This document shows, one piece after another, positions 266 through 18,434 of a DNA stretch of 20,587 bases. The stretch's first letter is position 1. Every line of letters begins with the position of its first letter. The position numbers were made by a program, and so were the translations under genes. Source of the stretch: a virus (taxonomy: Duplodnaviria > Heunggongvirae > Uroviricota > Caudoviricetes). The stretch spans positions 1 through 20,587 of the IMG/VR virus record IMGVR_UViG_3300029862_000030; one strand, 5' to 3'. The notes beneath the pieces were generated by a model. The model was not told the origin of the DNA. It made no database searches and saw nothing but the letters and a program-made list of their open reading frames with translations.

Positions 266-606
266 CAGTTCACCACCTGCTCAATCGTACAGCTGAAATC
301 ACTGTACCGGGCGTTATCCGTGACGCTCCACTCCCGACACACCACCCTCACCGTCCGGTTATGTTTCGGCGGTCGCCACAAAAAGGCACGGTAACCACCA
401 TGCCAGGATAAAAATTCATCCAGCCAGCGCCGGGTTGACTCATCCGTCACCCGGAACACCGCCTGAAACGTCTTCAGTTGAGGATTCAGTCCTGTGGGGC
501 GGCGCTGTTCATAACCGTCACCAAACCGAACCCTCACCACCGACGGTTTCTCACTCACCTGCATCCCTTCACGCGGGACCAGATGCAGCGTTTTTATCTC
601 AGCCAC
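265..606 (-). CDS. Minor tail protein M (lambda gpM-like)
   Basis: 113-aa ORF in the track. VRFGDGY, HGG and the C-terminal EQVVN are shared with lambda gpM as recalled. It sits between the tape measure and L, as in lambda. Confidence 0.8.
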   Translation of the reverse strand: MAEIKTLHLVPREGMQVSEKPSVVRVRFGDGYEQRRPTGLNPQLKTFQAVFRVTDESTRRWLDEFLSWHGGYRAFLWRPPKHNRTVRVVCREWSVTDNARYSDFSCTIEQVVN

Positions 607-3600
607 TCAGCATTCCTCCGTCACGTCGCATGGACAGCATCACCGCCTGCACCCGCTGGTCAATCAGCTGCACAAGACTGCCTGCCGCCTCCGGCCCTAT
701 CTGTCCGTTAGCCCCGTCATTCTGAATGGCGATGTGGTAGACCGGGGAATACACCAGACCGGCGCTGCCGTTCATACTGCCCACCGCGCGTACGCCCAGC
801 GAGCCATCCGCCGCCCGGGTCAGGGGCATAATGGCTTCAGGTCCGGCTTCCCCCATCAGCCCGGCCCCTTTTGCAAACGCAAAGTACGTGGGCGTGTCCA
901 CAATGCTGTTGCTGTACGCACTCAGATTTGCCGATGTGTAAACACCACCTTTTGCGTTTGCCACTGCCCCCGAAATCCATCCGCCGACCGTACCAAGCCA
1001 CCCTCCGGCACCGGAGAGTGATTTCAGTCCGTTAACAATGGCTGCATTCATCAGAATTTTTGAAACTTCCCGGAGAACTGAACTCCCCCAGTTCCTCCAG
1101 TCCACAACATTCCCGGCCAGTGCATCGGAAATATTTGATACCAGCCCGTCCATCGTGGAAACGACAGCATCTGCCGCCTGCGAAGCATAATCGGTGGCAC
1201 TGTCTGCCCAGTTCGTCAGCCCCTCTTTGAGCCCGGCATTCCAGTTACTGCGTAAAGCATCAGCCTTTGCATAATAATCCTGCTGATCGCTGAGACGCTC
1301 TTCCAGATATTTTTTATTCAGCTCTTTCTCCTGTTTCCACAGGGCTTCTTCAATTTCTCCGGCCTGATACTGTCTCAGTAGCTCGTTATTTTTCTGCTCA
1401 AACTCCTGCCGGATGCTCCACATTTCCTGAAGTCGTTCACGCATCCGTGAGCCTTCACCATATCCCAGTAACTGAGCCTCATTTGATGCTCTGACACTGG
1501 CATTACTGTCCGCCAGACTGCTCTCATACGCAGCAAGCTGCTCACGAATCTTTTTCTGGTCGATAAGTGCTGCATTCTGCAAAAGCGTTTTTTTCTGCGC
1601 TTCTGACAGGGTTGATAATTCGCCCTGACTGACCTGATATTTCATCTTAGCCAGTTCAGTATTCTGCCCTGCCAGTGCTATCTGTTCTTTTTGCTGTTTA
1701 ATCAGCCGTTTATAAATATCCTCTGTTTTTTCCGCTTCGGTCTTTTTATGCGCTTTGGGTTTATTTGCCTGGTTATTTCGCCATGCATCCAGTGAGTTAT
1801 TTATATAATTCAGTCTTGCTGTCTGATACGCCTCTCCCACAAAGCCGAGATCATCCGCAGCATAACCCAGGCGGGCACGCTCACGAGCTTCCCCCTTCAG
1901 GCGGGACAGAGCCAGTTCGCGCTCGCTGTTATTCAGTGCGGTCTGCTGTTTATCATCCAGGGTTGCCTGTGGTAGCCGTAACGGTACATTCACCAGCCCC
2001 TGTCGCTGCTGAAGTAATTCATTACCGAGCCCGAGAAGGCGATTAAACTCGGTATGCTGCCCATTCATGATCAACAGGGACTGATACGCTTTGTTTTGTT
2101 CCGCTGCCTGTTGACGGATCAACGCCACCCGTCGCTCCTCCAGCCCGGCAAGCACATCCTGAATGGATTGCGCTTTGCCCTGCATTTGAGTGAGGCGAGA
2201 CTGTTCAACTGCCAGTTGATTTGTTGCTTCTGCAAGCCCTTCTGTGACAGTTTTTACCGACGTCATGTGGTTAATCATAAAACCGTTATCGGTTGTCCAG
2301 CCCGGGTTTGCCAGCACATACTGATAGCCAGCAATTTTTTCCTGTAAGGATTTAATCTTACTTTTCTGCTCGTCAATTAACCTGTTTTGCTCCTTCAGTG
2401 CCTGTCGCGTCTTTTCCTCATTATCTGACGCTTCAGGAAGCGACATTGCCGACGTTTTCTGGCGAATTTCGTCGATTGTTGCGGCATACTGGCGTGCAGA
2501 TTCTCTGGCCTGCTCCTGATTCTGATACATCGTGTACCAGGCCGCAGCCCCCAGCATGACGAGTCCCGGCACACCACCAACCAGCCCCAGCGCGCCACTT
2601 AATAAACGACTCCCCACTGACGTAACATTATTCAGCGTTGTCTGTGCCGCTGTTCTGGCCGCAATATTACGGGTAAGTGACACCTGGGCAGCTGTCAGCT
2701 TCGCTTCTGCTGCGGCCTGCCTTTCGGTACCGCGAGCAGCAACAACCGCCTGTTGCGCACGATAAACCGCCGCACGCGCCCTGGCGGTTGCTATCTGTGT
2801 CCCCCGAAGTTGCACTTCAGCAAGAGCCACTTCGTTTCTGGCTGCAGTAATTAATCCGGCAGTTGCAGATCCAGCAGACGACGCCATATTGCCAAAATAT
2901 CGGGCTACCCCGACGGCAACCAGAGCACCGGCAGCGGTTGCCACGGTGTCAATATTGCCTGCAATACCATTCAGCACACCGGAGAGCGTCTTCGTCACTC
3001 CGCTTGCCTCGTTCGCACCACCAACCCAGGCCATAAAGGCGTTTTCAACTTTGGTTGCAGAGGATGAAACCGTATCAGGCATTGCCGCATATTCATCACG
3101 TAATGCCCCAAGCTGACTAATCAGTGCAGGAACAACCTTATCGGCGGTCAACTTTCCGTTATCCGCCATGGCCTTCAGATCCTTACGGGCAACTCCCATT
3201 CCCGCAGCCAGAGCACGAATAACACGATCGCCGTTCTCATTCACCGAGTTAAACTCTTCACCGCGCAGCACTCCCTGCGCCAGAGCCTGACTGAACTGCG
3301 TGATCACCGAACTGGCTTCTGCTGTACTGGCACCGGATAATTTCAGGCCCGTGGAGATCGCCTCGGTGACTTTCAGTACCTCCTCAGAACTGTAACCATA
3401 CTCCCGCATGGAAGCTGCAGAGCGGGCAAAAAGGCTGGCGTTATCAGAAAAAGCCGTCCCCGTTCTCTGGCTGATCGCCATTAATTCACGCTGTGATGAC
3501 TGAAAATCATCACTGGACTGTGAGGCCTGCTTCAGACGGGCATTTACTGAATTCCACTCATCGGCGAGAGAAATAAGATGACCGGTAGCAAAAGCCCCGG

Positions 3601-3832
3601 CAAATGCCCCCGCCATGTTCAGTGCCGAAGATTTAGCTGTATTTATCTGATCCGTCACTTCTGCCAGTGCACGCCGCATTTCACGGGATGCAGCAGCGGA
3701 CTGTCGGCCTCCGTTCTGCATGGTACGGTAGTAATCCTGCCCCATACGCGAAGCCCGGGAGATCTCTGACTGGAATGACCGGGAATTTGCCGAGATTTTA
3801 ATAATCAGTTCACGTAATGTCGCCACACTCAT
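599..3832 (-). CDS. Tail tape measure protein (lambda gpH-like)
   Basis: 1077-aa ORF with long Ala/Gln-rich, coiled-coil-like low-complexity stretches. The C-terminus (NDGANGQIGPEAA...RDGGMLSG) resembles the lambda gpH C-terminus. It lies directly downstream of the G/GT chaperone pair. Confidence 0.9.
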   Translation of the reverse strand: MSVATLRELIIKISANSRSFQSEISRASRMGQDYYRTMQNGGRQSAAASREMRRALAEVTDQINTAKSSALNMAGAFAGAFATGHLISLADEWNSVNARLKQASQSSDDFQSSQRELMAISQRTGTAFSDNASLFARSAASMREYGYSSEEVLKVTEAISTGLKLSGASTAEASSVITQFSQALAQGVLRGEEFNSVNENGDRVIRALAAGMGVARKDLKAMADNGKLTADKVVPALISQLGALRDEYAAMPDTVSSSATKVENAFMAWVGGANEASGVTKTLSGVLNGIAGNIDTVATAAGALVAVGVARYFGNMASSAGSATAGLITAARNEVALAEVQLRGTQIATARARAAVYRAQQAVVAARGTERQAAAEAKLTAAQVSLTRNIAARTAAQTTLNNVTSVGSRLLSGALGLVGGVPGLVMLGAAAWYTMYQNQEQARESARQYAATIDEIRQKTSAMSLPEASDNEEKTRQALKEQNRLIDEQKSKIKSLQEKIAGYQYVLANPGWTTDNGFMINHMTSVKTVTEGLAEATNQLAVEQSRLTQMQGKAQSIQDVLAGLEERRVALIRQQAAEQNKAYQSLLIMNGQHTEFNRLLGLGNELLQQRQGLVNVPLRLPQATLDDKQQTALNNSERELALSRLKGEARERARLGYAADDLGFVGEAYQTARLNYINNSLDAWRNNQANKPKAHKKTEAEKTEDIYKRLIKQQKEQIALAGQNTELAKMKYQVSQGELSTLSEAQKKTLLQNAALIDQKKIREQLAAYESSLADSNASVRASNEAQLLGYGEGSRMRERLQEMWSIRQEFEQKNNELLRQYQAGEIEEALWKQEKELNKKYLEERLSDQQDYYAKADALRSNWNAGLKEGLTNWADSATDYASQAADAVVSTMDGLVSNISDALAGNVVDWRNWGSSVLREVSKILMNAAIVNGLKSLSGAGGWLGTVGGWISGAVANAKGGVYTSANLSAYSNSIVDTPTYFAFAKGAGLMGEAGPEAIMPLTRAADGSLGVRAVGSMNGSAGLVYSPVYHIAIQNDGANGQIGPEAAGSLVQLIDQRVQAVMLSMRRDGGMLSG

Positions 3833-3842
3833 TCTCCGGACG

Positions 3843-3862
3843 AAAAAAAACCGCCGAAGCGG
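3843..3862 (-). terminator. Candidate intrinsic terminator between the GT chaperone and the tape measure gene
   Basis: Minus-strand reading gives CCGCTTCGGCGG (4-bp GC stem, TTCG loop) followed by T8. It lies in the 40-nt gap between 3873 and 3832. Confidence 0.5.
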
Positions 3863-3872
3863 TTATGTTGAC

Positions 3873-4561
3873 TCACTGAGACACTATTAAAAGCGCGTTT
3901 TCCAGTCCGGCAAATGGATCTGAGACGCCTTCTGTCTGCTCCTGCTCCCACTGAAGAAGCGCATCATTCAGTGGCACTTTGACCCCCTGCGCACCGTAAA
4001 CAGCTGAAACAATCTGGGCAGCCCGGATATCAGCCCGCTCGTCACCCAGCGGGCTGAACCTGTCAAATTCTGCCCACATCATGATTTCTGATGCGGACAT
4101 TTCCCGGCGTAACTCTGACAATGTGCGCCCCATCCTGAGCGCCAGCATCATCAGAAAACGCATCCCCGGAAGCGCTACTTTTTTTTAACCTCGCCGGCAT
4201 CACTGATCAGTTCCAGAGACTGCCGAAGAAGCCGCGCATGCACCGGGCCATACACGGCAATCACCTGTTCACGATCATCCTCTGAAAATACGGGTTGCAG
4301 TCCGGTATCACACAGAACATCAATGAACAGTTCAACATCTGCCTCCAGATTTCGGCGGGCGCGCTCCGCAACGGATAACGGTGTCTCATCATCTTTTGCT
4401 TTAACGATCTCCTGCCAGCGCAACCAGGCTTCTGCAGAAGGTTCCCGTAACACAACCGTTGCTCCCTCCCATTCAGGCACATCAACGGTTTTATGGCGAA
4501 ACCCCGACATCGTTGCCAGTGCCAGATTACGGATATTTTTAGTCATCACATCCATCCTCAT
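3873..4561 (-). CDS. Tail assembly chaperone GT fusion, made by a programmed -1 ribosomal frameshift from G into the T frame
   Basis: The slippery heptamer A_AAA_AAG lies at 4184..4178 (minus strand), just before the G stop TAG (4177..4175). Reading in the -1 frame gives KKVALPG followed by MRFLMMLALRMGRT..., which is exactly the 96-aa ORF 3873..4163 in the track. The frame arithmetic is consistent. Confidence 0.7.
4175..4561 (-). CDS. Tail assembly chaperone G (lambda gpG analog)
   Basis: 128-aa ORF immediately upstream of the tape measure. It ends ...GEVKKK with an A AAA AAG slippery heptamer at its 3' end. Confidence 0.75.
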   Translation of the reverse strand: MRMDVMTKNIRNLALATMSGFRHKTVDVPEWEGATVVLREPSAEAWLRWQEIVKAKDDETPLSVAERARRNLEADVELFIDVLCDTGLQPVFSEDDREQVIAVYGPVHARLLRQSLELISDAGEVKKK

Positions 4562-5265
4562 TAACTGACGGTTACAGTGCAGGAAGTAGAGGTCACTTTG
4601 TTAACCGGGCTTGCTGAATCAGAAATCTCGCAGGTATATGCACCCGCATCACCGGATACTGCCGATGCCTTACTGAACGTTGCCGCCGTCTGTCCGGAAA
4701 CAGGAGAACCACCTTTCTTCCAGACATAAGAATAAGGCGGCATACCACCCGCAGCCTCAACCGCCATTTCAAGTTTCGCTCCGGAAGCAACCCGCAGCGT
4801 GCTTTTTAAATTGGCCTTCACTTTCAGCGGCTCTGTCGTCAGCACAGGTTTACCTTTCAGACGCAGGGAAAACGTTGCAGCCACAACACCATTGGTTCCT
4901 GCAGACCAGGTATGCTGACGCACCTCTGCCATAAAGGTAAATCCGTTGCCTGACGGAAAAATAACTTTAAAGCCATACGTGGTGTCATTGTCATAGGCAC
5001 TGCGCAACGCGTTCTGGGCAGCATTCAGATAAAAGTTGCCTGACATGGAAATCTCTGAAGCAGCCCCAAGGCCGTTAATATTTTCCTGCTCAACAGAACA
5101 CAGCGTGGTGACATCAATATCCTGCTTTTGTCCTGCGGTAAACTGCACCTCTTTGATTGTACAGCTCAGGCCAAGATAGCTGGCAGAATCCAGGGTTTCT
5201 GCTGTTACCGGTGCAGACGAAATCATAATTTTCGTCAGTTGCGAACGCTCAAAATTAGAGGACAT
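4561..5265 (-). CDS. Major tail protein with a C-terminal Ig-like domain
   Basis: The track ORF 4561..5316 was trimmed to the internal ATG at 5265 (MSSNFERSQ...), which has a CAGGAGACGAGT Shine-Dalgarno sequence. It sits between the neck genes and G/GT. The C-terminal ~80 aa (EMAVEAAGGMPPYSYVWKKGG...YTCEISD...TVTVS) look like a bacterial Ig-like domain. Confidence 0.8.
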   Translation of the reverse strand: MSSNFERSQLTKIMISSAPVTAETLDSASYLGLSCTIKEVQFTAGQKQDIDVTTLCSVEQENINGLGAASEISMSGNFYLNAAQNALRSAYDNDTTYGFKVIFPSGNGFTFMAEVRQHTWSAGTNGVVAATFSLRLKGKPVLTTEPLKVKANLKSTLRVASGAKLEMAVEAAGGMPPYSYVWKKGGSPVSGQTAATFSKASAVSGDAGAYTCEISDSASPVNKVTSTSCTVTVS

Positions 5266-5282
5266 ACTCGTCTCCTGAAAAT

Positions 5283-5304
5283 AAAAAAACCCGCCAGCGG
5301 CGGG
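5283..5304 (-). terminator. Candidate intrinsic terminator just upstream of the major tail protein gene
   Basis: Minus-strand reading gives CCCGCC-GCT-GGCGGG (6-bp GC stem) followed by T7. Confidence 0.55.
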
Positions 5305-5324
5305 TGGGTAAATCATTAACGACC

Positions 5325-5669
5325 TCAGGCTATTACCTGAAATTCAAGCGTGGCTCTGCTCAGACGGGAGTCAGGATCATACCCCTGCGTTTTAGAAATA
5401 ACGGAGGGTGCCAGTTTTCTTACCGCATCAAGCGCCTGCTCACGAATATTATCTGCGTCATCAGGTACTGTCGCCCAGACATCGATCTGCACGGTAATTC
5501 TGGATTCAGCCTGCCCATCAAGCACATCAGATGCCGTGTCAGACACCACAGAAAACACCAGCCACGGCGGAGATACCGCAGGCTTTCCCTCCGTCAGCGG
5601 GACCACATAAGGATAAACCTGTCCTCCGGCCAGCTGAGACAACAGGGAATACAGTGTGCCCTCCCTCAT
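5325..5669 (-). CDS. Tail completion / tail terminator-like protein (DUF3168-like; functional analog of lambda gpU)
   Basis: 114-aa ORF immediately upstream of the major tail gene. Size and position are typical for this family; the sequence assignment is from memory and position. Confidence 0.55.
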   Translation of the reverse strand: MREGTLYSLLSQLAGGQVYPYVVPLTEGKPAVSPPWLVFSVVSDTASDVLDGQAESRITVQIDVWATVPDDADNIREQALDAVRKLAPSVISKTQGYDPDSRLSRATLEFQVIA

Positions 5670-6115
5670 TTACTTAAGACCTCATCAATAGCCTGATTCA
5701 TTCGCTGTATGGCAACCTGCGCCGCCAGCTCCTCTGTCGTATCGAAAGCCGGACGAATGAATGGATGCGCGGGCATGTTTATCGTTCCCAGCTCCACAAA
5801 GCGCCAGTAAAATGCATTTCGGGGATCGCTGGCTTTCATGCTGTTATCACTGTTTCCGGTTCGCAGGTTCCGTCCGCGAATGTGGACACCCGAGATAATT
5901 TCCCCCCGACGCTTTGAACGCTGAGTGAGAACAACCACATTTTTCTTCAGTTTCCCGGTTCGCTCCGGCGCACGTTCAACAACTGCATCCCGCATAACTT
6001 CAGCACCGGCACGGGTGGCATCGCGCAGAACCTTATTGTTTTCTGCCCTGCTGAGCGCCTCCAAATCCCGTGCAATATCCGCCAGGCCGGAAAAATCAAG
6101 ACTGAAATCCATCAC
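5666..6115 (-). CDS. HK97 gp10-like neck / tail completion protein
   Basis: 149-aa ORF with a 4-nt overlap onto the neighbouring gene. Position and size match the HK97 gp10 family. Confidence 0.6.
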   Translation of the reverse strand: MMDFSLDFSGLADIARDLEALSRAENNKVLRDATRAGAEVMRDAVVERAPERTGKLKKNVVVLTQRSKRRGEIISGVHIRGRNLRTGNSDNSMKASDPRNAFYWRFVELGTINMPAHPFIRPAFDTTEELAAQVAIQRMNQAIDEVLSK

Positions 6116-6450
6116 ACATTTCCCTTCAGGCTGCAGAGCATTTCAAGCCGGGTAGCGCGTGCATCCGGTATTGGTGGACCTTCTATACCCAGAATCGCGC
6201 CTTTGAATGCACCGGTCAGCACTTTCAGACGTGAAGTCGCTGTCACATCGCGCCGGAATCTCATCCAGACTCTGACCGTAGCCTGAGCGGTTTCTGCTCC
6301 GCCTGAGATTATCTCCCTCCCGCTGATACCCTTAACTTCTGCCCATACGGTAGCTCCCTCCGTCACCGTCTCCACCGGATGCCCTGACGGAGAGCGGGCG
6401 GTGGTGACATTCAGAATAATTACGCGATCACGTAATCTGCCCGCCTGCAT
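6112..6450 (-). CDS. Head closure / head-tail joining protein (HK97 gp9-like)
   Basis: 112-aa ORF between the connector and the gp10-like gene, overlapping its neighbour by 4 nt. Assigned by position and size. Confidence 0.55.
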   Translation of the reverse strand: MQAGRLRDRVIILNVTTARSPSGHPVETVTEGATVWAEVKGISGREIISGGAETAQATVRVWMRFRRDVTATSRLKVLTGAFKGAILGIEGPPIPDARATRLEMLCSLKGNV

Positions 6451-6458
6451 GTCTCCTC

Positions 6459-6776
6459 CTACAAAGGAATAAAACGATAAGGCTCCAGAAGAGAAGAAAA
6501 ACCAAACGGGACTGGTGCCTTGCTGACATCTGAGGAATTTTCCCGGTTTTCGTACCAGTGCCCGACCAGCAACATGAGCGCCAGCAAAACATCATCAGCT
6601 ATAAGCACCCCTTCAGGATCACCTTCCGGCACCGTCTCCTCATAAAGCTTACGGTTGATAAAATTTTCTGCCTTGCGGCAGGCAGCCCGGAAATACAGCA
6701 TCAGTAACTCATCATCAGTTGCATCATCTGTATCAATACGGCACTGCGCCCTGAGTTTTTCCACTATTGCTGCCAT
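6459..6776 (-). CDS. Head-tail connector protein (HK97 gp6-like)
   Basis: The track ORF 6459..6956 was trimmed to the internal ATG at 6776 (MAAIVEKLRAQ...), which has a CAGGAG Shine-Dalgarno sequence 8 nt upstream. The first 60 codons of the track ORF overlap the capsid 3' end and a terminator hairpin. Confidence 0.6.
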   Translation of the reverse strand: MAAIVEKLRAQCRIDTDDATDDELLMLYFRAACRKAENFINRKLYEETVPEGDPEGVLIADDVLLALMLLVGHWYENRENSSDVSKAPVPFGFSSLLEPYRFIPL

Positions 6777-6809
6777 CAGAAACTCCTGCCCGCAACACTG
6801 TGCGGGCAT

Positions 6810-6830
6810 AAAAAAACCGCGTCGGCGCGG
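6810..6830 (-). terminator. Candidate intrinsic terminator directly after the major capsid gene
   Basis: Minus-strand reading gives CCGCG-CCGA-CGCGG followed by T7, 20 nt after the capsid stop codon. Confidence 0.6.
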
Positions 6831-6852
6831 TCTGTAACTGAACAACGAGTGG

Positions 6853-8070
6853 TTATTTGCCAGTGAGCGCCTTGATGGCTGCCACATCTTCCAGCACACA
6901 GTCAAAACGATGGAAAGCCAGAAATGCCACCTGATCAAACTCAGCATAACGCTCAACCAGACGTTTCAGTTCCATATAAGTAACGCGGCGAATGATAAAG
7001 CGGTTGAAATCCCCCAGGAAAATGAATTTTTTTCCGGTACCAATCCCGTCAATAGCCTGATCAATAACATAAGGGATCCCCAGCACAGTAGCCGGCGTAC
7101 CGCCTGCAATATCCGGCAGCCATAACGGGCGTTTCTGTCCATCCTCCATCTCTTCAATAGTCTGCAATGTGGCATCATTGAATGCCCAGCGGTATTTCGG
7201 CCCACCACGATATGCCGGATCAATGGCATGTTTCAGGGCATTCATTTCTTTCCAGGTGAAAGCGGCAGAGGCTGCAGTCTGGATGGTTCCCGTCACCGAC
7301 GCTGCCAGCCCTTTTGGCTGTAACGGTGATCCCGTTCCGGTCCCCTGAACCAGATATTTTGCCTCTCCACGACCAATACGCTGGGCAATACGGTTTGCCA
7401 GATAAGATTCAATATCCACCCCACTGTCCTGGAGCAGCTCATTGGACACACGAATTATTTTTGATGACAGCTTTTTAGCCCCCAGAATAGCGGTCCCGAA
7501 CGTCACATCCTGTTCCGTTGCGGCTGTATTTTCCGCCAGCAGTTCGCCCTCTTCAGTCGTGCCATCAGACGTTGACCAGGTGATATCCTGCCCGGTTGAT
7601 GTGGTCAGAAGTTGCGCCACACTGGCAATCCCGCCATAAGCCTTCATGGTGTCAATGATTTTGTTACGCATCTGCGTGGGCACCGTATATCCGCCCTGAG
7701 AATCCGTTGTTACACTCTGAGCCCGCAGTTCACGCATCAGATTACGCTCTTCAGCATTCAGTTCTGCAAATCCGGCACGCAGAAAACGGTTAAATGCCGC
7801 AGCGCGCTTCTCTTCCACCGCCTTTTTCCCGTTCTCCGCCTCATTATTCTGGCGCTCTTCCGGCCCGGACTCATCCACATATGCCTGATCCTGACGGCGC
7901 AACTCTTCTTCACGGGCGATTTGCTCATCCAGCGCATCCAGCTCAGCTTTCGCCCTGTTCCACTCTGCCCGTTGCTCATCAGTCCATGCGTTATCACCAA
8001 TTTTTTCATGCAGTGCACGCATATCCTTTGCAATGGTGTTTCGTTTTTGCTTCATCTCATGAAGTTTCAT
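6853..8070 (-). CDS. Major capsid protein, HK97 fold, with an N-terminal delta (scaffolding) domain
   Basis: 405-aa ORF. The N-terminal ~100 aa are charged and coiled-coil-like (delta domain), followed by a capsid-like body. It follows the prohead protease, as in HK97. Confidence 0.9.
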   Translation of the reverse strand: MKLHEMKQKRNTIAKDMRALHEKIGDNAWTDEQRAEWNRAKAELDALDEQIAREEELRRQDQAYVDESGPEERQNNEAENGKKAVEEKRAAAFNRFLRAGFAELNAEERNLMRELRAQSVTTDSQGGYTVPTQMRNKIIDTMKAYGGIASVAQLLTTSTGQDITWSTSDGTTEEGELLAENTAATEQDVTFGTAILGAKKLSSKIIRVSNELLQDSGVDIESYLANRIAQRIGRGEAKYLVQGTGTGSPLQPKGLAASVTGTIQTAASAAFTWKEMNALKHAIDPAYRGGPKYRWAFNDATLQTIEEMEDGQKRPLWLPDIAGGTPATVLGIPYVIDQAIDGIGTGKKFIFLGDFNRFIIRRVTYMELKRLVERYAEFDQVAFLAFHRFDCVLEDVAAIKALTGK

Positions 8071-8084
8071 CGTCAGTAGTATCC

Positions 8085-8684
8085 TTATGCATTAAGAAGG
8101 GTCAAAAGACGCTCACGCGCCATTCGTTCGTTAACAGCTTTCTTCAGCGCACCACTCGCCCGCGCTTCCTGCCAGGCTTTCATTGAGCGGACACCAGAGT
8201 CTGCGTCCTGATAGGCCGGATATGTCACCGGGCTGACGTCATACAGACGAGAAATGCGCGTGATTTCCCGGATAACAATCCCCTCGTCGTCTTCATACCA
8301 GCTCTCTCCGTCACGGGCGACACGAAACGCGAACGAGGACTGATTAATGTCACCACGCAACATTGGAGACAGCACCAGGTCACAAATAGTCGGAGTATCC
8401 GGTGCAACAATGTCATAACGTAAACCGCGTTCATCCACCGACAATGACAACGTGCCGGCAGAACTTCGTCCGAGAATGAAATTAGGATCATGATTAAACA
8501 AGCCACGTACATCATCATTCAGTACATCATCAAAAGCCCCCGGCTTGATGATTTCACGAAATCCCCACAGAGGTTCTGAACGACTGTTAAATACCGAGCC
8601 ATAGCCCAGAATGTGGGTCGGGGCATTATCATATTGTTCCGCCCGCACCTCCCCGCTGTAACAGCGCGTTTCACGGTCATTCAT
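8085..8684 (-). CDS. Prohead maturation protease (HK97 gp4-like, S78 family)
   Basis: 199-aa ORF between portal and capsid, with the typical size and position. Confidence 0.85.
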   Translation of the reverse strand: MNDRETRCYSGEVRAEQYDNAPTHILGYGSVFNSRSEPLWGFREIIKPGAFDDVLNDDVRGLFNHDPNFILGRSSAGTLSLSVDERGLRYDIVAPDTPTICDLVLSPMLRGDINQSSFAFRVARDGESWYEDDEGIVIREITRISRLYDVSPVTYPAYQDADSGVRSMKAWQEARASGALKKAVNERMARERLLTLLNA

Positions 8685-9903
8685 CGTTCTTTTCCTCTTT
8701 GCCTTTCGTATCTTTAAAGTTATTCAACGGATTTGCTGCATTTACGCTGACCAGCATTTCATCCAGACCGTCAACCGGGTTCATATCCTCAAATGCCCTG
8801 GCTTCATTCCGGCTCATCCAGCCATCTGTAATGGCAAAGTGATAGAACTGCGCACGCTCCTGTGGGGTCCCACGGAGCAACCCCGTGAGGTTGAAGCGAA
8901 CGTAATACCCGGCAGCCCGTTCTGTACGGGTAAACAGGCGACGGTTAAGCTCCTGCTCCCAGTTCGCAACCCAGGGCATCATCGTGTAGCGAACAAACTG
9001 AATCGCCTGCTGCGTAATATTCGAAAATGTGGCTTTTTCCAGGTCATTAATCATGTGCGCCGGGACATTAAAAATCCCGGCAATCATCGACCGGTTCAGC
9101 TTGGTCATATCAATGATCTGAGCATCCACCGGAGAAACTGTCAGAGCGCGGTAATCCAGTTGCGCAGGCAGCAACATGGTTTTATTTTCCTGGCTGCGAA
9201 GCGCTGTCACCGCCCGCTGCCACATATTCTTGAGCCTGCTCCAACTCTGTTCGTTCAGTTCATTTTTCACAGAAATAATCCCGGCAGGACGGGCATTACC
9301 GTTAAAAAAAGCACTGGTATACTGCTGACCACTCATTCCCATACCAATGGTTTCAGCATGCTGCATGATCGGACTCAGTCCCATTTTCTGATTGTTTCCC
9401 AGCGCCCTGATATGGATCATGTCGTCCGGACTTACCGCAAATGCACCCTCTTCGTTATACACACCGTAGGTATGACGCCCTCCGGTGTTAAGTAACGTGG
9501 TTTCCCATGGCATACAGCATTCAAGACTGGTAACCTCGCCACGACGATTACGTTTCACCCACGTATAACCATTGCCCCACCCCAGCACATGACGCTGCTT
9601 CAGTTCCCGCCACTTATAGCTGGTCTGCCAGGCATTCGGTTCATCATGAACGAGCCAGAACAACGGGTGATCGCGTGCCGGCTGAACATGCTCATTCGTT
9701 TTTCGCATCACATGCAGGGGCATCTGAGCCACACTGGATGAAATAACATAAATACAGGCATAGACAGCAGCCAGCCTCATGGACGTTTCCGGACTGACAT
9801 ACACATCCCGGGCAAAAATATTATCCGTCTCAGCGGCCTCTCCGGTTACCGGAACCGAGGGATTTTCCAGAGGCTCACTGCGAAACAGAGCATCAAGAAG
9901 CAT
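8677..9903 (-). CDS. Portal protein (HK97 gp3-like)
   Basis: 408-aa ORF downstream of the large terminase, with an AGGAGAAAAC Shine-Dalgarno sequence before its ATG. Confidence 0.9.
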   Translation of the reverse strand: MLLDALFRSEPLENPSVPVTGEAAETDNIFARDVYVSPETSMRLAAVYACIYVISSSVAQMPLHVMRKTNEHVQPARDHPLFWLVHDEPNAWQTSYKWRELKQRHVLGWGNGYTWVKRNRRGEVTSLECCMPWETTLLNTGGRHTYGVYNEEGAFAVSPDDMIHIRALGNNQKMGLSPIMQHAETIGMGMSGQQYTSAFFNGNARPAGIISVKNELNEQSWSRLKNMWQRAVTALRSQENKTMLLPAQLDYRALTVSPVDAQIIDMTKLNRSMIAGIFNVPAHMINDLEKATFSNITQQAIQFVRYTMMPWVANWEQELNRRLFTRTERAAGYYVRFNLTGLLRGTPQERAQFYHFAITDGWMSRNEARAFEDMNPVDGLDEMLVSVNAANPLNNFKDTKGKEEKNDE

Positions 9904-10032
9904 GTTTTCTCCTCATGGACACCACCAGTGCATAAAGCAGCAACAAACAGCCAGACAGCATCAGAGACGCTGGCAGACCTGCATACAGATAAACGCCAGC
10001 AGTGAGCAGACCGAAACCGATCAGCCCGGTCA
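9893..10032 (-). CDS. Small hydrophobic protein (~46 aa) between the large terminase and portal
   Basis: Hand translation of the minus strand from the ATG at 10032 gives MTGLIGFGLLTAGVYLYAGLPASLMLSGCLLLLYALVVSMRRKHAS, a probable single transmembrane helix. It overlaps the portal start. It is below the ORF-track size cutoff and the end coordinate is good to about 1 nt. Confidence 0.3.
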
Positions 10033-10050
10033 TATCAGTAATAAGCTGTT

Positions 10051-11808
10051 TCACAGAATTAACAGGTCCTCATCAGGATCAAGCGTGGACAGAAAGTCAT
10101 TCACGCCCCCGCCATTTACCAGAAAGCGGCTCATGGCTGTAAAAAGCGCAACAGGGCCGTCGATTTTGGCTTCCGGCGTGGATTTATTCGGGAAGATGTT
10201 GTCGTTTTTGTCCGGTTTTACAGTAACGTTAGACATCATCCAGTTCATGACCGGATGATTGCTGTGATGGAAACGCCCGGCATAAACCAGTGATTCCGTT
10301 TCCTTCATGGCCTCTGACAGATTGCGGACCGTCTGCGGAACCTCCACCAGCGGTATCCCTTCTTCAGCCAGTGCCAGGCTGAACTGCATTGCGCTCCACG
10401 GGTCAAATCCCAGTTCCCTGAGGTTTTCACCGCCAATCCATTCCAGTAAGTCACTTTTTATCTGAGCATGATCGATAACATCACCATCCGTCAGGATGAG
10501 CTTATCCATCTCCGCCCACTTCCGGTAAAGTTCTGCCTGCTGCCGCGAGCATCGCTCCAGCCGTCCTTCCGGAAGCCAGAATTTAAAATCAGCATGAACA
10601 TGTCCGTTATCGGTTCGCCAGAGTTTTGCCGCCGCACAGATATCAATCTTATGAGCAAGGTCTACGCCGACCCACATGGGATATGTTTTCAGCTCATGTT
10701 GTGGAGCAATGTATTCGCACTTCTCCCACTTAATCATATCCATCCAGGCAGATTCGGCAGTGACCCACACATTCATGTGTTTGGTAAAAAAATTCACCCG
10801 CGCAGAGACCTGCTCCTTCGCTTTTTTCGCCAGACGACGCAGATCATCCCAGCGTTTACAGATGCCCAGGCCAGGATTCGCTTTCTGCCAGACCGTTTCA
10901 TCAAACGGATCATCTCCCTCATCAAGCGTGTAAATGATCGCAAAGTAAGAGTCGTCTTTTACAGCGCCCTCCACGTCGCTGTTATAGCCTCGCAATACCT
11001 TGATGGCGTAATCACGCTGCTCGTAACAAATCCCTTCCTTGTTAAAGCCAGCCGTGGTGATACCAAATAACAGGGACTGCAGACGGGCACCGGTTGCCGT
11101 TTCCAGAACGTCCCACACGTCGCGGGTTTTATGTGCATGCAGCTCATCAATAATGGCGCAGTGGATGTTCAGACCGTCCAGGTTGTTTGCATCCGAGGAA
11201 AGCGGTTCAAATTTTGATGCGCTCTGCTCCTGGTAAATCGCCAGCTTGTTGAAATCAAACAACCGCCCGAGTGTCGACCGGGCTTTTCTGACCATATTTT
11301 TGGCGTCTTCAAACACGATTCTGGCCTGGTCACGCGTGGTTGCGGCTGAATACACCTCAGCTCCGCCTTCACTATCTGCCCCCGTCATATACAGGCCGAT
11401 ACCCGATGACAGTGTTGATTTTGCGTTTTTACGGGCGACTTCGTTGTACGCCGTCCGGAACCGGCGCACCATCACCGGACGTCCGCTGCCATCGCTGCGC
11501 ATGACAACTTCCCCGGTTTCTTCATTGACCAGCGGAATGACAAAACCAAAAATATTAATGAGGATAAATACATGCCAGTCCATCAACTCAATGGGCTGGC
11601 CTGCCAGTGCCCCTTTTACATGAGGCACAAATTTGTAGAAATTCAGGATGTGCTGCGCACGGGGTTCACTGAAATAAATCCCCCGCTTTTCGCCGTACTT
11701 CAGATCATCAAGAAAACGCTGGCAGGCCAGGCGGACAAATTCGCCAGCAACAATTTCTCCTGCAACAACACGTTCGGCGTAGCGGATCCCGTCAGCCACT
11801 TTTGCCAT
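10051..11808 (-). CDS. Terminase large subunit
   Basis: 585-aa ORF. The start overlaps the small-subunit stop, and it sits upstream of the portal. Confidence 0.9.
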   Translation of the reverse strand: MAKVADGIRYAERVVAGEIVAGEFVRLACQRFLDDLKYGEKRGIYFSEPRAQHILNFYKFVPHVKGALAGQPIELMDWHVFILINIFGFVIPLVNEETGEVVMRSDGSGRPVMVRRFRTAYNEVARKNAKSTLSSGIGLYMTGADSEGGAEVYSAATTRDQARIVFEDAKNMVRKARSTLGRLFDFNKLAIYQEQSASKFEPLSSDANNLDGLNIHCAIIDELHAHKTRDVWDVLETATGARLQSLLFGITTAGFNKEGICYEQRDYAIKVLRGYNSDVEGAVKDDSYFAIIYTLDEGDDPFDETVWQKANPGLGICKRWDDLRRLAKKAKEQVSARVNFFTKHMNVWVTAESAWMDMIKWEKCEYIAPQHELKTYPMWVGVDLAHKIDICAAAKLWRTDNGHVHADFKFWLPEGRLERCSRQQAELYRKWAEMDKLILTDGDVIDHAQIKSDLLEWIGGENLRELGFDPWSAMQFSLALAEEGIPLVEVPQTVRNLSEAMKETESLVYAGRFHHSNHPVMNWMMSNVTVKPDKNDNIFPNKSTPEAKIDGPVALFTAMSRFLVNGGGVNDFLSTLDPDEDLLIL

Positions 11809-12290
11809 CAGTCTCTCGCTTTTAAAAGCTCTGCCAGCGGATCAACATTATCCGGTCCGGCGGTATTTACTTTTGCCCGGCTTGCCGGTGACATACCAAA
11901 TTCTGCAAGCATCGCCCGGATCCGCTTCCAGGCATCCGCTTTCATCGCAGCAGCTGGGTGTGCCTTAATCAGCACATCACCGTTCTGCGTTTCCGAGCGG
12001 TAGGTGTACCCCTCAACATCGAGTGTTTCGCAGTGATGCCGGTATTCGGTATAGGCTTCCACCAGTAGCTCAAGCGCACGCGCATCAAGCTGAGAAATGA
12101 TCCCTTCCGCATTCAGCTCTTCCGCCATTCGCCTGAACCAGTACTTCCCCTGCGCCCCTAAATGTTGCGGAATTTTAGGGAGACCTTTTTCATCCTTTTT
12201 AGCGGTTTTTTTGAGGTCTTTAACTGGCCGCTTTGAGGGGTTGCCTCGTATCAAATGCAGGCGTGGCGGGGTTTTCGGGGGTCCAGACAT
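11808..12290 (-). CDS. Terminase small subunit (P27 family type)
   Basis: 160-aa ORF immediately upstream of the large subunit with which it overlaps. It has a basic N-terminus (KRPVKDLKKTAKKDEKG). Confidence 0.75.
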   Translation of the reverse strand: MSGPPKTPPRLHLIRGNPSKRPVKDLKKTAKKDEKGLPKIPQHLGAQGKYWFRRMAEELNAEGIISQLDARALELLVEAYTEYRHHCETLDVEGYTYRSETQNGDVLIKAHPAAAMKADAWKRIRAMLAEFGMSPASRAKVNTAGPDNVDPLAELLKARD

Positions 12291-15338: not shown

Positions 15339-15344
15339 GCATGT

Positions 15345-15374
15345 AAAAAGGCCCCAACACATGTGCGTGGGGCC
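15345..15374 (-). terminator. Candidate minus-strand intrinsic terminator upstream of the holin (possible tR'-like element)
   Basis: Minus-strand reading gives a GGCCCCA/TGGGGCC stem around an 11-nt loop containing the palindrome CACATGTG, followed by TTTTTAC. Confidence 0.45.
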
Positions 15375-15574
15375 TGAGAGTATACATGGTTTCAGTCAAC
15401 TGCATGGTGCCGGGTGCCTCCCGGTGAATTCAGTACCAGCACCTGAATCCGCGATTATCCCATATACCTACTCGCTGATTGCCCATCCGCACAGGGGGAT
15501 TCACCATGCCAGTTTCTTTTAACAAACTCCCCGCAAAACAGACAACTGTCAACCGTCTGAATTGTGAGACATTT

Positions 15575-15603
15575 AAAAAAAAGGCCCGCAAAAGCGAGCC
15601 GGG
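15575..15603 (-). terminator. Intrinsic terminator downstream of the tRNA cluster
   Basis: Minus-strand reading gives CCCGGCTCGC-TTTT-GCGGGCC (7-bp stem with one G-T pair) followed by T8, about 12 nt after the 3' end of tRNA-Arg(TCT). Confidence 0.6.
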
Positions 15604-15614
15604 AAAAATAAGTC

Positions 15615-15691
15615 TGGCGCGTTGTACTGGATTCGAACCAGTGACCGATTGCTTAGAAGGCAATTGCTCTGTCCGGTTGAGCTAACAACGC
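15615..15691 (-). tRNA. tRNA-Arg (anticodon TCT, reads AGA), argO-like
   Basis: Hand-folded from the reverse complement: acceptor stem GCGTTGT/ACAACGC, D arm GCTC..GAGC, anticodon stem ATTGC/GCAAT with loop CTTCTAA, T arm CTGGTTCGAATCCAG, discriminator G and an encoded CCA. Similar to E. coli argU. Confidence 0.8.
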
Positions 15692-15704
15692 AGGGTACAG
15701 ATAA

Positions 15705-15781
15705 TGGACCGCCATCGAGGACTCGAACCCCGCGCAACCAGCTTCGAAGGCTGGTGCTCTATCCTGATGAGCTAATGGCGG
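15705..15781 (-). tRNA. tRNA-Arg (anticodon TCG as read by hand, reads CGA), argN-like
   Basis: Hand-folded: acceptor stem CCGCCAT/ATGGCGG (C1-G72), D stem GCTC/GAGC, anticodon stem CCAGC/GCTGG with loop CTTCGAA, T arm CGGGGTTCGAGTCCTCG and an encoded CCA. The anticodon call depends on my loop assignment. Confidence 0.65.
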
Positions 15782-15788
15782 TATGTGA

Positions 15789-15864
15789 TGGTGGCCCTTG
15801 CTGGATTTGAACCAGCGACCTGGCGATTATGAGTCGCTCGCTCTCACCACTGAGCTAAAGGGCC
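15789..15864 (-). tRNA. tRNA-Ile2 (anticodon CAT, lysidine type, reads AUA), ileZ/ileX-like
   Basis: Hand-folded 76-nt sequence GGCCCTTTAGCTCAGTGGTGAGAGCGAGCGACTCATAATCGCCAGGTCGCTGGTTCAAATCCAGCAAGGGCCACCA, which closely resembles E. coli tRNA-Ile2 (ileX) as recalled. Anticodon loop CTCATAA. Confidence 0.8.
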
Positions 15865-16243: not shown

Positions 16244-16693
16244 AAAAACCCGCTCATCGGCGGGTTTAAGCTGTGTGACGAAGTAACTACTCTTAACAGC
16301 ATAACCAATTTTTTACGTACGTAAACTACTAAATGATATTTGTGAGAATGCCACCGAGTGTTCAAAACACCACCACAAATACATAAGAAAATTTCAACAA
16401 ATAACCAATTAATAATTTCAGATGTTATTTTTAGTTTGTTTAAATTAAGCTAAAGAATTATAGACTGCTTATAAATAAGTTCCATTAATATAAATTAGCT
16501 AATAGATTTATTTTTGTTCAAACAAGAGCCATAAATAGGATTAGATAGAAAAGGTTCAGATAAAAATAGAGATCTACTTCACAAATTAAATGAGAAACTA
16601 AAACTTACATCTTGAAATAATCACATTGATTAGATGAATATTTATCGCGCAGTGACATCATTTTTTAATAATAGTTCAAAAAAAGGGTGTACA

Positions 16694-17776
16694 ATGAAAA
16701 AATTAACAGTGGCAATTTCTGCTGTAGCTGCATCAGTACTGATGGCGATGTCTGCTCAGGCAGCTGAAATTTATAATAAAGACAGTAACAAGCTGGATCT
16801 ATACGGGAAAGTTAATGCCAAGCACTACTTCTCCTCTAATGATGCAGATGATGGTGATACTACTTATGCCCGTCTTGGCTTCAAAGGTGAAACCCAAATC
16901 AACGATCAACTGACTGGTTTCGGTCAGTGGGAATATGAATTCAAAGGCAACCGCGCTGAATCTCAAGGTTCTTCCAAAGACAAAACCCGTCTTGCATTTG
17001 CAGGCCTGAAATTTGGTGATTACGGCTCAATCGATTACGGCCGTAACTACGGTGTAGCATACGACATCGGTGCGTGGACTGACGTTCTGCCAGAATTCGG
17101 TGGTGATACCTGGACCCAAACAGATGTGTTCATGACTGGTCGCACTACTGGTGTTGCAACTTATCGTAACAACGACTTCTTTGGTCTGGTCGATGGCCTG
17201 AACTTTGCTGCTCAGTATCAGGGTAAAAATGACCGCACTGACGTAACTGAAGCCAATGGTGATGGTTTCGGTTTCTCCACTACTTATGAGTATGAAGGAT
17301 TCGGCGTGGGTGCAACCTATGCTAAATCAGATCGCACTGACGGTCAGGTCGCCTATGGTAAGAGCAAATTCAATGCCTCCGGCAAAAATGCGGAAGTATG
17401 GGCTGCAGGCCTGAAATATGATGCGAACAATATCTATCTGGCTACCACATATTCTGAAACTCAGAATATGACCGTTTTTGGTAATAACCATATTGCAAAC
17501 AAAGCACAAAACTTTGAAGCAGTAGCACAATATCAGTTTGACTTCGGTCTGCGCCCATCTGTTGCTTACCTTCAGTCAAAAGGTAAAGACCTTGGTGTTC
17601 ATGGTGACCGAGACTTAGTCAAGTATGTCGATGTCGGTGCTACTTACTACTTTAATAAAAACATGTCCACTTTTGTTGATTACAAAATCAACTTAATTGA
17701 CGATAGTAAGTTTACCAAAACAGCTGATATTGATACCGACGACATCGTCGCTGTAGGTCTGGTTTACCAGTTCTAA
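16694..17776 (+). CDS. nmpC: Outer membrane general porin, NmpC/OmpC/OmpD family
   Basis: The track ORF 16634..17776 contains the signal peptide [23 protein letters not shown] followed by [16 protein letters not shown] and a C-terminal ...VGLVYQF beta-barrel signature, matching NmpC as recalled. The start was trimmed to the MKKL Met; my nucleotide count in that line disagrees with the track frame by 1 nt, so the start is good to about 1 nt. It is on the opposite strand to the phage late genes and preceded by about 370 nt of very AT-rich DNA. Confidence 0.9.
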
Positions 17777-18349: not shown

Positions 18350-18434
18350 CAACTTACTCCACAAAAATCAGACCAGAACGCCAATTACAAGCAAAAATCA
18401 ACAAAACAGTATTAGTTGATTGTTATCTCTGACT

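What the first reader, a model, noticed from the sequence alone, without database searches (positions are those of the whole stretch)
3873..4561. Programmed -1 ribosomal frameshift making the G and GT tail assembly chaperones
The slippery heptamer A_AAA_AAG lies immediately before the G stop codon. The -1 frame continues without a stop into the 96-aa ORF at 3873..4163. The frame arithmetic was checked by hand: G codons start at positions congruent to 1 mod 3, the downstream ORF at 2 mod 3, which is what a -1 slip on the minus strand produces. This is the conserved G/GT strategy of long-tailed phages, using the same heptamer as E. coli dnaX.
Basis: seen in the sequence. Interest (0 to 1): 0.5.

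Follow-up and report, generated by a model that had tools for sequence, protein, structure and literature searches.

The report
Phage tail chaperone G/GT frameshift site

Summary
On the minus strand, the G ORF (annotated ATG 4546, or 4561, to 4175) ends GTT AAA AAA AAG TAG. The heptamer A_AAA_AAG is at 4184..4178. The -1 frame is closed by TAA at 4187..4185 and then open to the TGA at 3875..3873. The shift can therefore only happen on the A-run, and it gives ...GEVKKK|VALPGMRF... G is a Phage_TAC_1 protein and matches PDB 2OB9 (HK97 chaperone) at E 5e-49. The -1 ORF is a Phage_tail_T domain. The pair lies between the major tail and tape-measure genes.

In 159 related loci, T is in the -1 frame in 154, and 1-nt indels explain the other five. 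All 97 distinct junctions carry an in-frame A_AAN slip codon; 56 are A_AAA_AAG. A Pro codon upstream of any possible T start is conserved.

HK97 gp13/gp14 is annotated as a -1 frameshift. Published clusters (GeneTack Phage_TAC; Sharma 2014 A_AAA_AAG_25) list this family. A homologous A_AAA_AAG_TAG cassette gave 7% frameshifting in E. coli.

No dnaX-like upstream SD is present. A hairpin is predicted 6 nt downstream, but it is lineage-specific and has no covariation support. Transcriptional slippage on the A8 run would give the same protein but is probably minor.

Verdict: real, already known, low interest. The only practical value is annotation: records list G and T as separate genes.

The parts
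4175..4546 (-). Gene G, tail assembly chaperone: 123 aa from ATG 4546. An upstream in-frame ATG at 4561 overlaps the major-tail stop as TAATG and would give 128 aa.
   Evidence: Translation. Pfam PF06222 Phage_TAC_1, 2.7e-58, starting at residue 6 of the long ORF. PDB 2OB9 HK97 tail assembly chaperone, E 4.6e-49. RefSeq CDS of 372 nt.
4178..4184 (-). Slippery heptamer A_AAA_AAG; the zero-frame codons are AAA 4183-4181 and AAG 4180-4178.
   Evidence: Sequence. It is the only in-frame A_AAA_AAG in a gene of this window. Conserved as A_AAA_AAG in 56 of 97 distinct junctions, and as an A_AAN slip codon in all 97.
4179..4186 (-). A8 homopolymer that contains the heptamer. Any -1 slip within it, or insertion of one A into the mRNA, gives the same protein.
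   Evidence: Sequence. In IMG/VR, A8 occurs in at least 119 contigs, A7 in 4 and A9 in 0.
4175..4177 (-). Zero-frame UAG stop of G, immediately 3' of the heptamer.
   Evidence: A stop directly follows the slip codon in 60 of 97 distinct junctions.
4185..4187 (-). TAA in the -1 frame that closes the T frame just upstream of the heptamer. It confines the shift to 4184..4178.
   Evidence: overlap of 10 nt.
3873..4178 (-). T segment, read only in the -1 frame after the slip: 101 codons, VALPGMRFLMM...IVSQ, then TGA 3875-3873. The GT fusion is 224 aa.
   Evidence: Translation. Pfam PF06223 Phage_tail_T, 3.6e-19. phrog_14766 covers G plus T. Pro127 (CCG 4169-4167), upstream of every ATG in this frame, is invariant in 9 proteins. 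Its first base is invariant and its second at least 90% conserved in 52 DNA sequences.
4102..4171 (-). Predicted imperfect hairpin beginning 6 nt 3' of the heptamer; a candidate stimulator, lineage-specific.
   Evidence: -31.7 kcal/mol for 80 nt, z -2.5, 3 of 200 shuffles as good. Within the lowest 2.7% of 80-nt windows of the operon. Not conserved in the family. No compensatory changes in close relatives.
4030..4099 (-). Two further predicted hairpins (4099-4071 and 4057-4030) inside T coding sequence; function unknown, probably not part of the signal.
   Evidence: The 148 nt fold to -70.7 kcal/mol, z -5.9. Hairpin 3 is broken in most close relatives.
4561..5316 (-). Upstream neighbour: major tail protein with a C-terminal Ig-like domain. 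RefSeq starts it at about 5265.
   Evidence: phrog_158 major tail protein, 9e-111. Pfam Ig_2, Ig_3, Phage_TTP_11..
599..3832 (-). Downstream neighbour: tape measure protein (1077 aa), the expected binding partner of G.
   Evidence: Pfam Phage_HK97_TLTM 2e-93, TMP_3, Tape_meas_lam_C. phrog_339.

Best explanation
This is the G/GT tail-assembly-chaperone recoding site of an HK97-like lambdoid prophage of E. coli.

Most ribosomes translate G (4546..4178) and terminate at UAG 4177-4175, giving the 123-aa chaperone G. A minority slip one base backwards on A_AAA_AAG. The single E. coli tRNA-Lys pairs as well with AAA as with AAG. The slip may involve tRNAs on AAA and AAG together, or the AAG tRNA alone while the UAG waits in the A site. 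These ribosomes then read GTA GCG CTT CCG... to the TGA at 3875-3873. The product is a 224-aa GT protein (...GEVKKK-VALPGMRFLMM...).

By analogy with lambda, the shared G part is expected to coat the tape measure protein. The T domain of the rare GT would recruit the major tail protein, so the fixed G:GT ratio is what the frameshift provides.

Shown here: the sequence anatomy, the protein families, the synteny and the comparative conservation. Inferred: that the shift is ribosomal, its efficiency (likely a few per cent), and the roles of the adjacent stop codon and of the predicted hairpin at 4171-4102.
For: Anatomy:
- The heptamer fills the only interval where the two frames can be joined. 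The -1 frame is closed at 4187-4185 and the zero frame at 4177-4175.

Families and synteny:
- G is PF06222 and matches PDB 2OB9. T is PF06223. The pair lies between the major tail and tape measure genes.

Comparative evidence:
- tblastn of the fused protein finds 226 phage records. In the 60-row spread listed, every hit that reaches both halves is in two joined pieces, consistent with G and T lying in different frames (frames were verified only).
- Of 159 loci from GTDB genomes and IMG/VR, 154 have T in the -1 frame. The other 5 are 1-nt indels.
- All 97 distinct junctions have an in-frame A_AAN. Counts: A_AAA_AAG 56, G_GAA_AAG 16, A/G_GCA_AAG 11, G_GGA_AAG 5, A_AAA_AAC 4, A_GAA_AAG 2, A_AAA_AAA 2, G_GGA_AAC 1.
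- -1-frame residues between the slip site and the first ATG are conserved (V-x-x-P...F-L-M, with Pro127 invariant). There is no start codon between 4184 and 4164.

Annotation precedent:
- HK97 NP_037707 is annotated 'translated due to a -1 frameshift', and HK446 has a joined CDS.

Literature:
- The lambda G:GT ratio of about 30:1 is needed for tail assembly, and G-T frameshifting is widely conserved (PMC5009743).
- Cluster A_AAA_AAG_25, 'ECs1801 tail assembly chaperone [true]' (PMC4066793 Table S4).
[quoted passage not shown] A G_GGA_AAG relative gave 6% (PMC3711429).
Against: - No GT protein or frameshift efficiency was measured for this sequence.
- In one reporter the bare A_AAA_AAG heptamer gave only 0.29% (PMC4066793 Table S3). 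Some context effect must therefore help, and I could not identify it with confidence. There is no SD-like element 6-17 nt upstream; only GAGG lies 4 nt upstream, and it is not conserved.
- The predicted downstream hairpin has no covariation support.
- The A8 run could also support RNA-polymerase slippage, which would give the same protein.
Confidence: 0.92

Rival explanations
1. GT arises mainly from transcriptional slippage. RNA polymerase adds one extra A on the A8/T8 tract, and the A9 mRNA is translated normally into the same ...VKKKVALPG... fusion.
For: The tract has 8 identical bases, close to the 9-base runs on which bacterial RNA polymerase slips efficiently (PMC5009743; 'An, n>7' is listed for transcriptional realignment in PMC3711429). 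The protein product would be indistinguishable (my reading). The tract does gain and lose bases in databases: A7 in 4 IMG/VR contigs and an A9 in-frame fusion in L014.
Against: Relatives keep the same -1 layout and the same slip position with runs far too short for polymerase slippage: GGGAAAG, GGAAAAG, AGCAAAG, and A6 in the Stx phages. The A6 cassette still gave 7% and the G_GGA_AAG cassette 6%. What is conserved is the codon phase (A_AAG in frame), which matters to ribosomes and not to RNA polymerase. Efficient slippage is described for 9 or more bases.
Confidence: 0.05
2. There is no fusion. T is made as a separate small protein by initiation or termination-reinitiation at ATG 4163, 4151 or 4148, as the RefSeq and GenBank annotations of this lineage imply.
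For: Records annotate T as its own CDS starting at ATG 4151. ATG 4163 lies 11 nt after the G stop. A GGGGA stretch at 4167-4163 lies 11 nt before ATG 4151 (sequence).
Against: The ATG at 4163 is not conserved; relatives have Ile, Val, Thr or Leu codons there. No SD-like sequence is conserved. -1-frame residues upstream of every ATG are conserved, including the invariant Pro. That only makes sense if this stretch is translated, and no start codon exists between the upstream TAA and 4164. The always-present in-frame slip codon would also be unexplained. HK97 is annotated as a fusion. From memory of Levin et al. 1993, only gpG and gpGT are seen in lambda.
Confidence: 0.03
3. The site is a decayed or inactive relic: a cryptic prophage in which the layout persists without function.
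For: It lies in a bacterial chromosome as a prophage. A few relatives carry frame-breaking A7 tracts.
Against: All head, tail, lysis and terminase ORFs in the window are intact. Sequences 97-99% identical occur in phage-collection records, most named as induced or isolated phages; ON470600 is listed as 11,121 bases and ON470580 is described as a partial genome. The locus is found in 901 of 5426 complete E. coli genomes with the A8 tract retained.
Confidence: 0.03

Closest known systems
Phage HK97 gp13 / gp14 (tail assembly chaperone and its -1 frameshift extension; NP_037708 / NP_037707; structure 2OB9)
   Same: Same protein families. G aligns with 2OB9 over residues 1-125 at E 4.6e-49, and the fused GT is about 61-64% identical to HK97-type relatives by tblastn and alignment. 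Same position between the major tail and tape measure genes. Same -1 relation and the same slip codon position (AAG); the fusion continues V-x-x-P-G-x-x-F-L-M.
   Different: HK97-type phages have G_GAA_AAG followed by five more G codons before the stop. Here it is A_AAA_AAG followed directly by UAG. HK97 also has a moron (gp15) between T and the tape measure gene; here only a terminator-like hairpin remains.
E. coli O157 Sakai ECs1801 / Stx-phage tail assembly chaperone (Sharma 2014 cluster A_AAA_AAG_25; GeneTack Phage_TAC cluster)
   Same: Same family, about 64-66% identity. Same heptamer A_AAA_AAG immediately followed by UAG. Listed as a true frameshift case, and a cassette identical to the L004 junction gave 7%.
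   Different: The A run is 6 there and 8 here. The -1 frame opens 25 nt before the stop there and 10 nt here. The downstream RNA is not unusually structured there (z -0.2) but is here (z about -5.5).
Phage lambda G / G-T
   Same: Same strategy, same gene position and the same T-domain family (PF06223). The expected mechanism is that G binds the tape measure, T binds the major tail protein, and the ratio is set by the frameshift.
   Different: Lambda uses G_GGA_AAG, and its G belongs to a different chaperone sequence family. Only PF06222 was hit here; the lambda details are from the literature and from memory.
E. coli dnaX gamma/tau frameshift
   Same: Identical heptamer A_AAA_AAG and dependence on the single tRNA-Lys.
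   Different: dnaX has an SD-like stimulator about 10 nt upstream and a proven stem-loop 6 nt downstream. It shifts at about 50% and makes a shorter product. Here there is no SD at that distance, the hairpin is unproven, the likely efficiency is a few per cent, and the product is longer.

Membership tests
G/GT tail assembly chaperone -1 programmed frameshift of long-tailed phages (Xu, Hendrix & Duda 2004) | Two ORFs lie between the major tail protein gene and the tape measure gene. | tested here: met
   Major tail 4561..5316, G 4175..4546, T 3873..4178, tape measure 599..3832, all on the minus strand.
G/GT tail assembly chaperone -1 programmed frameshift of long-tailed phages (Xu, Hendrix & Duda 2004) | The second ORF overlaps the end of the first in the -1 frame. 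| tested here: met
   The overlap is 4184..4175, with frame residues 1 mod 3 and 2 mod 3.
G/GT tail assembly chaperone -1 programmed frameshift of long-tailed phages (Xu, Hendrix & Duda 2004) | A slippery sequence lies in the correct phase inside the overlap. | tested here: met
   A_AAA_AAG at 4184..4178, with zero-frame codons AAA AAG.
G/GT tail assembly chaperone -1 programmed frameshift of long-tailed phages (Xu, Hendrix & Duda 2004) | The second ORF lacks its own conserved start and ribosome binding site, and coding conservation reaches back to the slip site. | tested here: met
   No start codon lies between 4184 and 4164. ATG 4163 is not conserved. Pro127 upstream of it is invariant.
G/GT tail assembly chaperone -1 programmed frameshift of long-tailed phages (Xu, Hendrix & Duda 2004) | The layout is conserved in homologues despite sequence divergence. 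| tested here: met
   154 of 159 loci have the -1 relation, and the 5 exceptions are 1-nt indels. All 97 distinct junctions carry an in-frame A_AAN.
G/GT tail assembly chaperone -1 programmed frameshift of long-tailed phages (Xu, Hendrix & Duda 2004) | Both products (G and the GT fusion) are made, with GT the minor species. | not testable with these tools
   Only indirect evidence is available. Homologous cassettes gave 7% and 6% in E. coli (PMC3711429). HK97 is annotated as a frameshift product.
HK97 gp13-type chaperone (Pfam PF06222 Phage_TAC_1) plus T domain (PF06223 Phage_tail_T) | Sequence membership above the curated cut-offs. | tested here: met
   195.7 bits against a cut-off of 25, and 69.4 bits against 25.9. 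2OB9 at E 4.6e-49. NCBIfam has no model for either.
dnaX-type -1 frameshift cassette | Heptamer A_AAA_AAG. | tested here: met
dnaX-type -1 frameshift cassette | A Shine-Dalgarno-like stimulator about 10 nt (6-17 nt) upstream. | tested here: not met
   The only match is GAGG at 4192-4189, 4 nt from the heptamer. It is absent in the Stx, HK97 and Klebsiella relatives. The published cluster is also scored as having no SD.
dnaX-type -1 frameshift cassette | A stable stem-loop 5-9 nt downstream that stimulates the shift. | tested here: inconclusive
   A hairpin is predicted at 4171-4102 with a 6-nt spacer, -31.7 kcal/mol, z -2.5. Only 52.6% of cells are paired in the family against 52.0% when shuffled. 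There are no compensatory changes. A relative shifts at 7% with only 45 nt downstream.
Programmed transcriptional realignment (Thermus dnaX, some IS elements) | A homopolymer of 9 or more A/T, conserved in length rather than in codon phase. | tested here: not met
   The run is A8 here. Relatives have A3-A7 or GGGAAAG, with the codon phase conserved.

The most novel reading that the evidence does not exclude
In this particular prophage lineage the signal may have been upgraded in two ways. The A8 tract is two bases longer than in the tested Stx-phage relative. In addition, an unusually structured 148-nt stretch lies right after it: three hairpins at z about -5.9, the most stable RNA in the 11.7-kb late operon, with the first hairpin starting 6 nt from the heptamer. 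Together these could set a higher or condition-dependent G:GT ratio, partly through RNA-polymerase slippage. The tract could also act as a mutational on/off switch for tail assembly (A7 variants exist).
Probability: 0.12. Interest if true: 0.3.

Novelty: already known. Interest (0 to 1): 0.1.

Why it matters
The biology adds little, because the G/GT frameshift is a textbook feature of long-tailed phages. This family with this heptamer is already catalogued, and a close homologue has been tested. The practical value is annotation. RefSeq and most GenBank records of this very common prophage (901 of 5426 complete E. coli genomes) list G and 'T' as two independent genes, with T given an artificial internal ATG start. 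The real second product is almost certainly a 224-aa GT fusion. The survey also gives a clean picture of how the slip codon (A_AAG) stays fixed while the P-site half of the heptamer drifts.

Tried and rejected
1. Folds of 48 and 60 nt are no better than shuffles, so I rejected a local hairpin.

2. A family-wide downstream structure. RNAalifold on 9 relatives finds only a 6-bp GCGCUC/GGGCGC helix about 36 nt downstream, with no covariation; it encodes the conserved ALRxGR. Projecting the window's three hairpins on 52 relatives gives 52.6% paired against 52.0% shuffled. Close relatives show 28 pair-breaking and 12 wobble-only changes, none compensatory. I rejected it as a conserved element and kept it only as a lineage-specific candidate.

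3. A family-wide tendency to be structured. It is mild: mean z -1.2, and 25% of sequences have z below -2.

4. A dnaX-like upstream SD. None lies at 6-17 nt.

5. Enrichment of AAAAAAG in the window. There is none; position and phase are the argument, not counts.

6. Rfam. Nothing is found at the site.

7. NCBIfam. There is no model for G or T.

8. Xu et al. 2004 could not be read, as it is not held. Statements about it rest on citing reviews and on memory.

9. A first version of the close-relative variant script was off by one base and returned nothing. It was corrected.

Full report
**What is in the sequence**

Read on the minus strand, an ORF runs from ATG 4561, or from the annotated ATG 4546, to a TAG at 4177-4175. 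It ends ...GAT GCC GGC GAG GTT AAA AAA AAG TAG. The A run has eight bases (4186..4179). The phased heptamer A_AAA_AAG is at 4184..4178.

In the -1 frame there is a TAA at 4187-4185. After it the frame stays open for 103 codons, to the TGA at 3875-3873. The two frames can therefore be joined only within about 7 nt, and that interval is exactly the heptamer. The fusion reads ...SDAGEVKKK|VALPGMRFLMMLALRMGRTL..., 224 aa from ATG 4546.

AAAAAAG as a word is not over-represented in the window (7 found, 4.9 expected). None of the other six copies is phased A_AAA_AAG inside a gene (arithmetic). In-frame A_AAA_AAG is also strongly avoided in E. coli genes (z = -10.1, PMC4066793 Table S3).

**What the genes are**

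- The upstream ORF is a Phage_TAC_1 tail assembly chaperone (PF06222, 2.7e-58). The match begins at the Met at 4546.
- It aligns with the solved HK97 chaperone 2OB9 at E 4.6e-49.
- The -1 segment is a Phage_tail_T domain (PF06223, 3.6e-19).
- PHROG 14766, a 224-residue profile, matches G with its first half and T with its second.
- Upstream lies the major tail protein with an Ig-like C-terminus. Downstream lies a 1077-aa tape measure protein.
- The rest of the window is an intact HK97-type head, terminase and lysis module of a lambdoid prophage.
- Sequences 97-99% identical occur in 11 phage-collection records. The G-T stretch occurs in 901 of 5426 complete E. coli genomes, always on chromosomes.
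- Those records annotate G and 'T' as separate CDSs. T is given an internal ATG at 4151, and in one record it is split into pieces.

**Comparative test**

A tblastn search with the fused protein finds 226 phage records. In the 60-row spread that was listed, every hit reaching both halves is in two joined pieces. I read the junction in nine diverse relatives. I then read it in 159 further loci from GTDB genomes and IMG/VR.

T is in the -1 frame in 154 of those 159. The five exceptions are all single-base indels:
- an A9 tract that fuses G and T in frame in a Symbiopectobacterium symbiont;
- A7 tracts in two IMG/VR contigs;
- an A6-for-A7 tract in a Serratia;
- an extra C inside G in a Leclercia.

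Among 97 distinct junction contexts, every one has an in-frame A_AAN codon inside the overlap:

| Motif | Count |
|---|---|
| A_AAA_AAG | 56 |
| G_GAA_AAG (HK97 type) | 16 |
| A/G_GCA_AAG | 11 |
| G_GGA_AAG (lambda type) | 5 |
| A_AAA_AAC (Halomonadaceae) | 4 |
| A_GAA_AAG | 2 |
| A_AAA_AAA | 2 |
| G_GGA_AAC | 1 |

The A-site half (A_AAG) is fixed while the P-site half drifts. [quoted passage not shown]

Fusions built at that codon align without gaps across the junction. The -1-frame residues just after it are conserved (V-x-x-P-[G/E/D]-x-x-F-L-M). The Pro encoded at 4169-4167 is invariant in 9 proteins. The first base of its codon is invariant and the second at least 90% conserved in 52 nucleotide sequences. 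That Pro lies upstream of every ATG of the frame and downstream of the TAA. It can be translated only by ribosomes arriving from G.

**Precedent**

- HK97 NP_037707 is annotated 'translated due to a -1 frameshift', and HK446 carries the joined CDS.
- Sharma et al. 2014 list 'A_AAA_AAG_25, ECs1801, tail assembly chaperone [true]', with no SD and a predicted hairpin.
- Antonov et al. 2013 tested two members of their HK97-like 'Phage_TAC' cluster in E. coli. [quoted passage not shown] A G_GGA_AAG_CCG_TAA member gave 6%.
- The biological rationale comes from lambda. G and GT at about 30:1 are both needed: G binds the tape measure and T binds the major tail protein (PMC5009743).

**How it most likely works here**

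Most ribosomes stop at UAG and release G. A few per cent slip -1 on the lysine codons and continue into T. Because the site is a homopolymer, several routes all give the identical protein:
- a tandem slip on AAA-AAG;
- a slip of the AAG tRNA alone while UAG occupies the A site;
- a slip one codon earlier;
- insertion of one A by RNA polymerase.

The bare heptamer gave only 0.29% in one reporter, 4.3% with the IS911 stimulators and 39% with the IS3 pseudoknot. Context must therefore help. I see two candidates.

1. The stop codon directly 3' of the heptamer. It is present in 60 of 97 junctions and in the 7% cassette.
2. A predicted imperfect hairpin at 4171-4102, starting 6 nt after the heptamer. 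It folds to -31.7 kcal/mol, z -2.5, and lies within the lowest 2.7% of 80-nt windows of the operon.

The hairpin is not a family feature. Only a 6-bp helix that encodes ALRxGR is shared. The window's pairs are no better kept than shuffled ones. Close relatives show no compensatory changes. The 7% cassette had only 45 nt downstream. No SD-like element lies at the dnaX-type distance. The dnaX comparison therefore holds for the heptamer only.

**Rivals**

- Transcriptional slippage is possible on eight As but is described as efficient at nine or more. It cannot explain relatives with GGGAAAG, GGAAAAG or AGCAAAG at the same phased position. I rate it a minor contributor.
- Independent initiation of T is contradicted by the conserved -1-frame residues upstream of any start and by the non-conserved ATG at 4163.
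- Decay is contradicted by the intact module and by the closely related phage records.

**Left unexplained**

The 148 nt after the heptamer fold into three hairpins (-70.7 kcal/mol, z -5.9). They contain the most stable 80-nt windows of the whole late operon. Across the family the tendency is weak: mean z is -1.2, and the tested Stx relative has z -0.2. This could tune the ratio in this lineage, or it could mean nothing.

**Verdict**

The feature belongs to a catalogued and experimentally sampled family, so it is already known and of low interest. The one useful consequence is that the separate 'T' gene in current annotations of this prophage should be replaced by a joined G-T CDS with the slip at 4184..4178.

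Noticed in passing
window 4030..4177 (-): The 148 nt right after the heptamer fold into three hairpins (4171-4102, 4099-4071, 4057-4030) at -70.7 kcal/mol, z -5.9. The most stable 80-nt windows of the whole minus-strand late operon (599..12290) start at 4110..4080. This is lineage-specific: the family mean z is -1.2, and hairpin 3 is broken in most close relatives.
   Followed up: partly
window 3841..3864 (-) and 5289..5305 (-): Intrinsic-terminator-like hairpins followed by T runs. One lies between the T stop and the tape-measure start, where HK97 has the moron gp15 plus an annotated terminator. The other lies just upstream of the major tail gene, where HK97 also annotates a putative terminator.
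   Followed up: partly
L014 (Ca. Symbiopectobacterium endolongispinus) 1523-1592; L129, L144, L172-L175 (IMG/VR); L038 (Serratia): The A tract gains or loses one base in a few relatives. An A9 makes an in-frame G-T fusion. A7 (4 IMG/VR contigs, against at least 119 with A8 and none with A9) or A6 puts T in the +1 frame. These may be sequencing errors or inactivating or phase-type mutations; I could not tell which.
   Followed up: partly
L076, L077, L080, L084 (Salinicola, Halomonas and an unclassified gammaproteobacterium, MFB021) and L086 (Pseudomonas): These relatives use A_AAA_AAC or G_GGA_AAC, an Asn slip codon, instead of the Lys AAG used by the enterobacterial members. This may be a host-specific choice of slip codon.
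   Followed up: no
window 3873..4151 (-), and records PV340570, ON470580, NZ_CP025401: Public records of this prophage annotate T as a free-standing CDS from an internal ATG. One record splits the region into three 'tail assembly chaperone' CDSs. None joins G and T.
   Followed up: yes
window 15339..15864 (-): The prophage carries three tRNA genes (Met-CAU 15789-15864, Arg-UCG 15705-15781, Arg-UCU 15615-15691). Next to them is a full-length match to the sRNA family STnc100 (15339-15538, 133 bits).
   Followed up: no
window 16634..17776 (+): A 380-aa Gram-negative porin gene (Porin_1, 1e-150) lies on the opposite strand, between the Q antiterminator gene (17966-18364) and the lysis genes. It is a probable moron.
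   Followed up: no
window 4561..5316 (-): The major tail protein carries a C-terminal Ig-like domain (Ig_2/Ig_3). Its start is ambiguous: the longest ORF begins at 5316, whereas RefSeq uses about 5265, downstream of the terminator-like hairpin.
   Followed up: no
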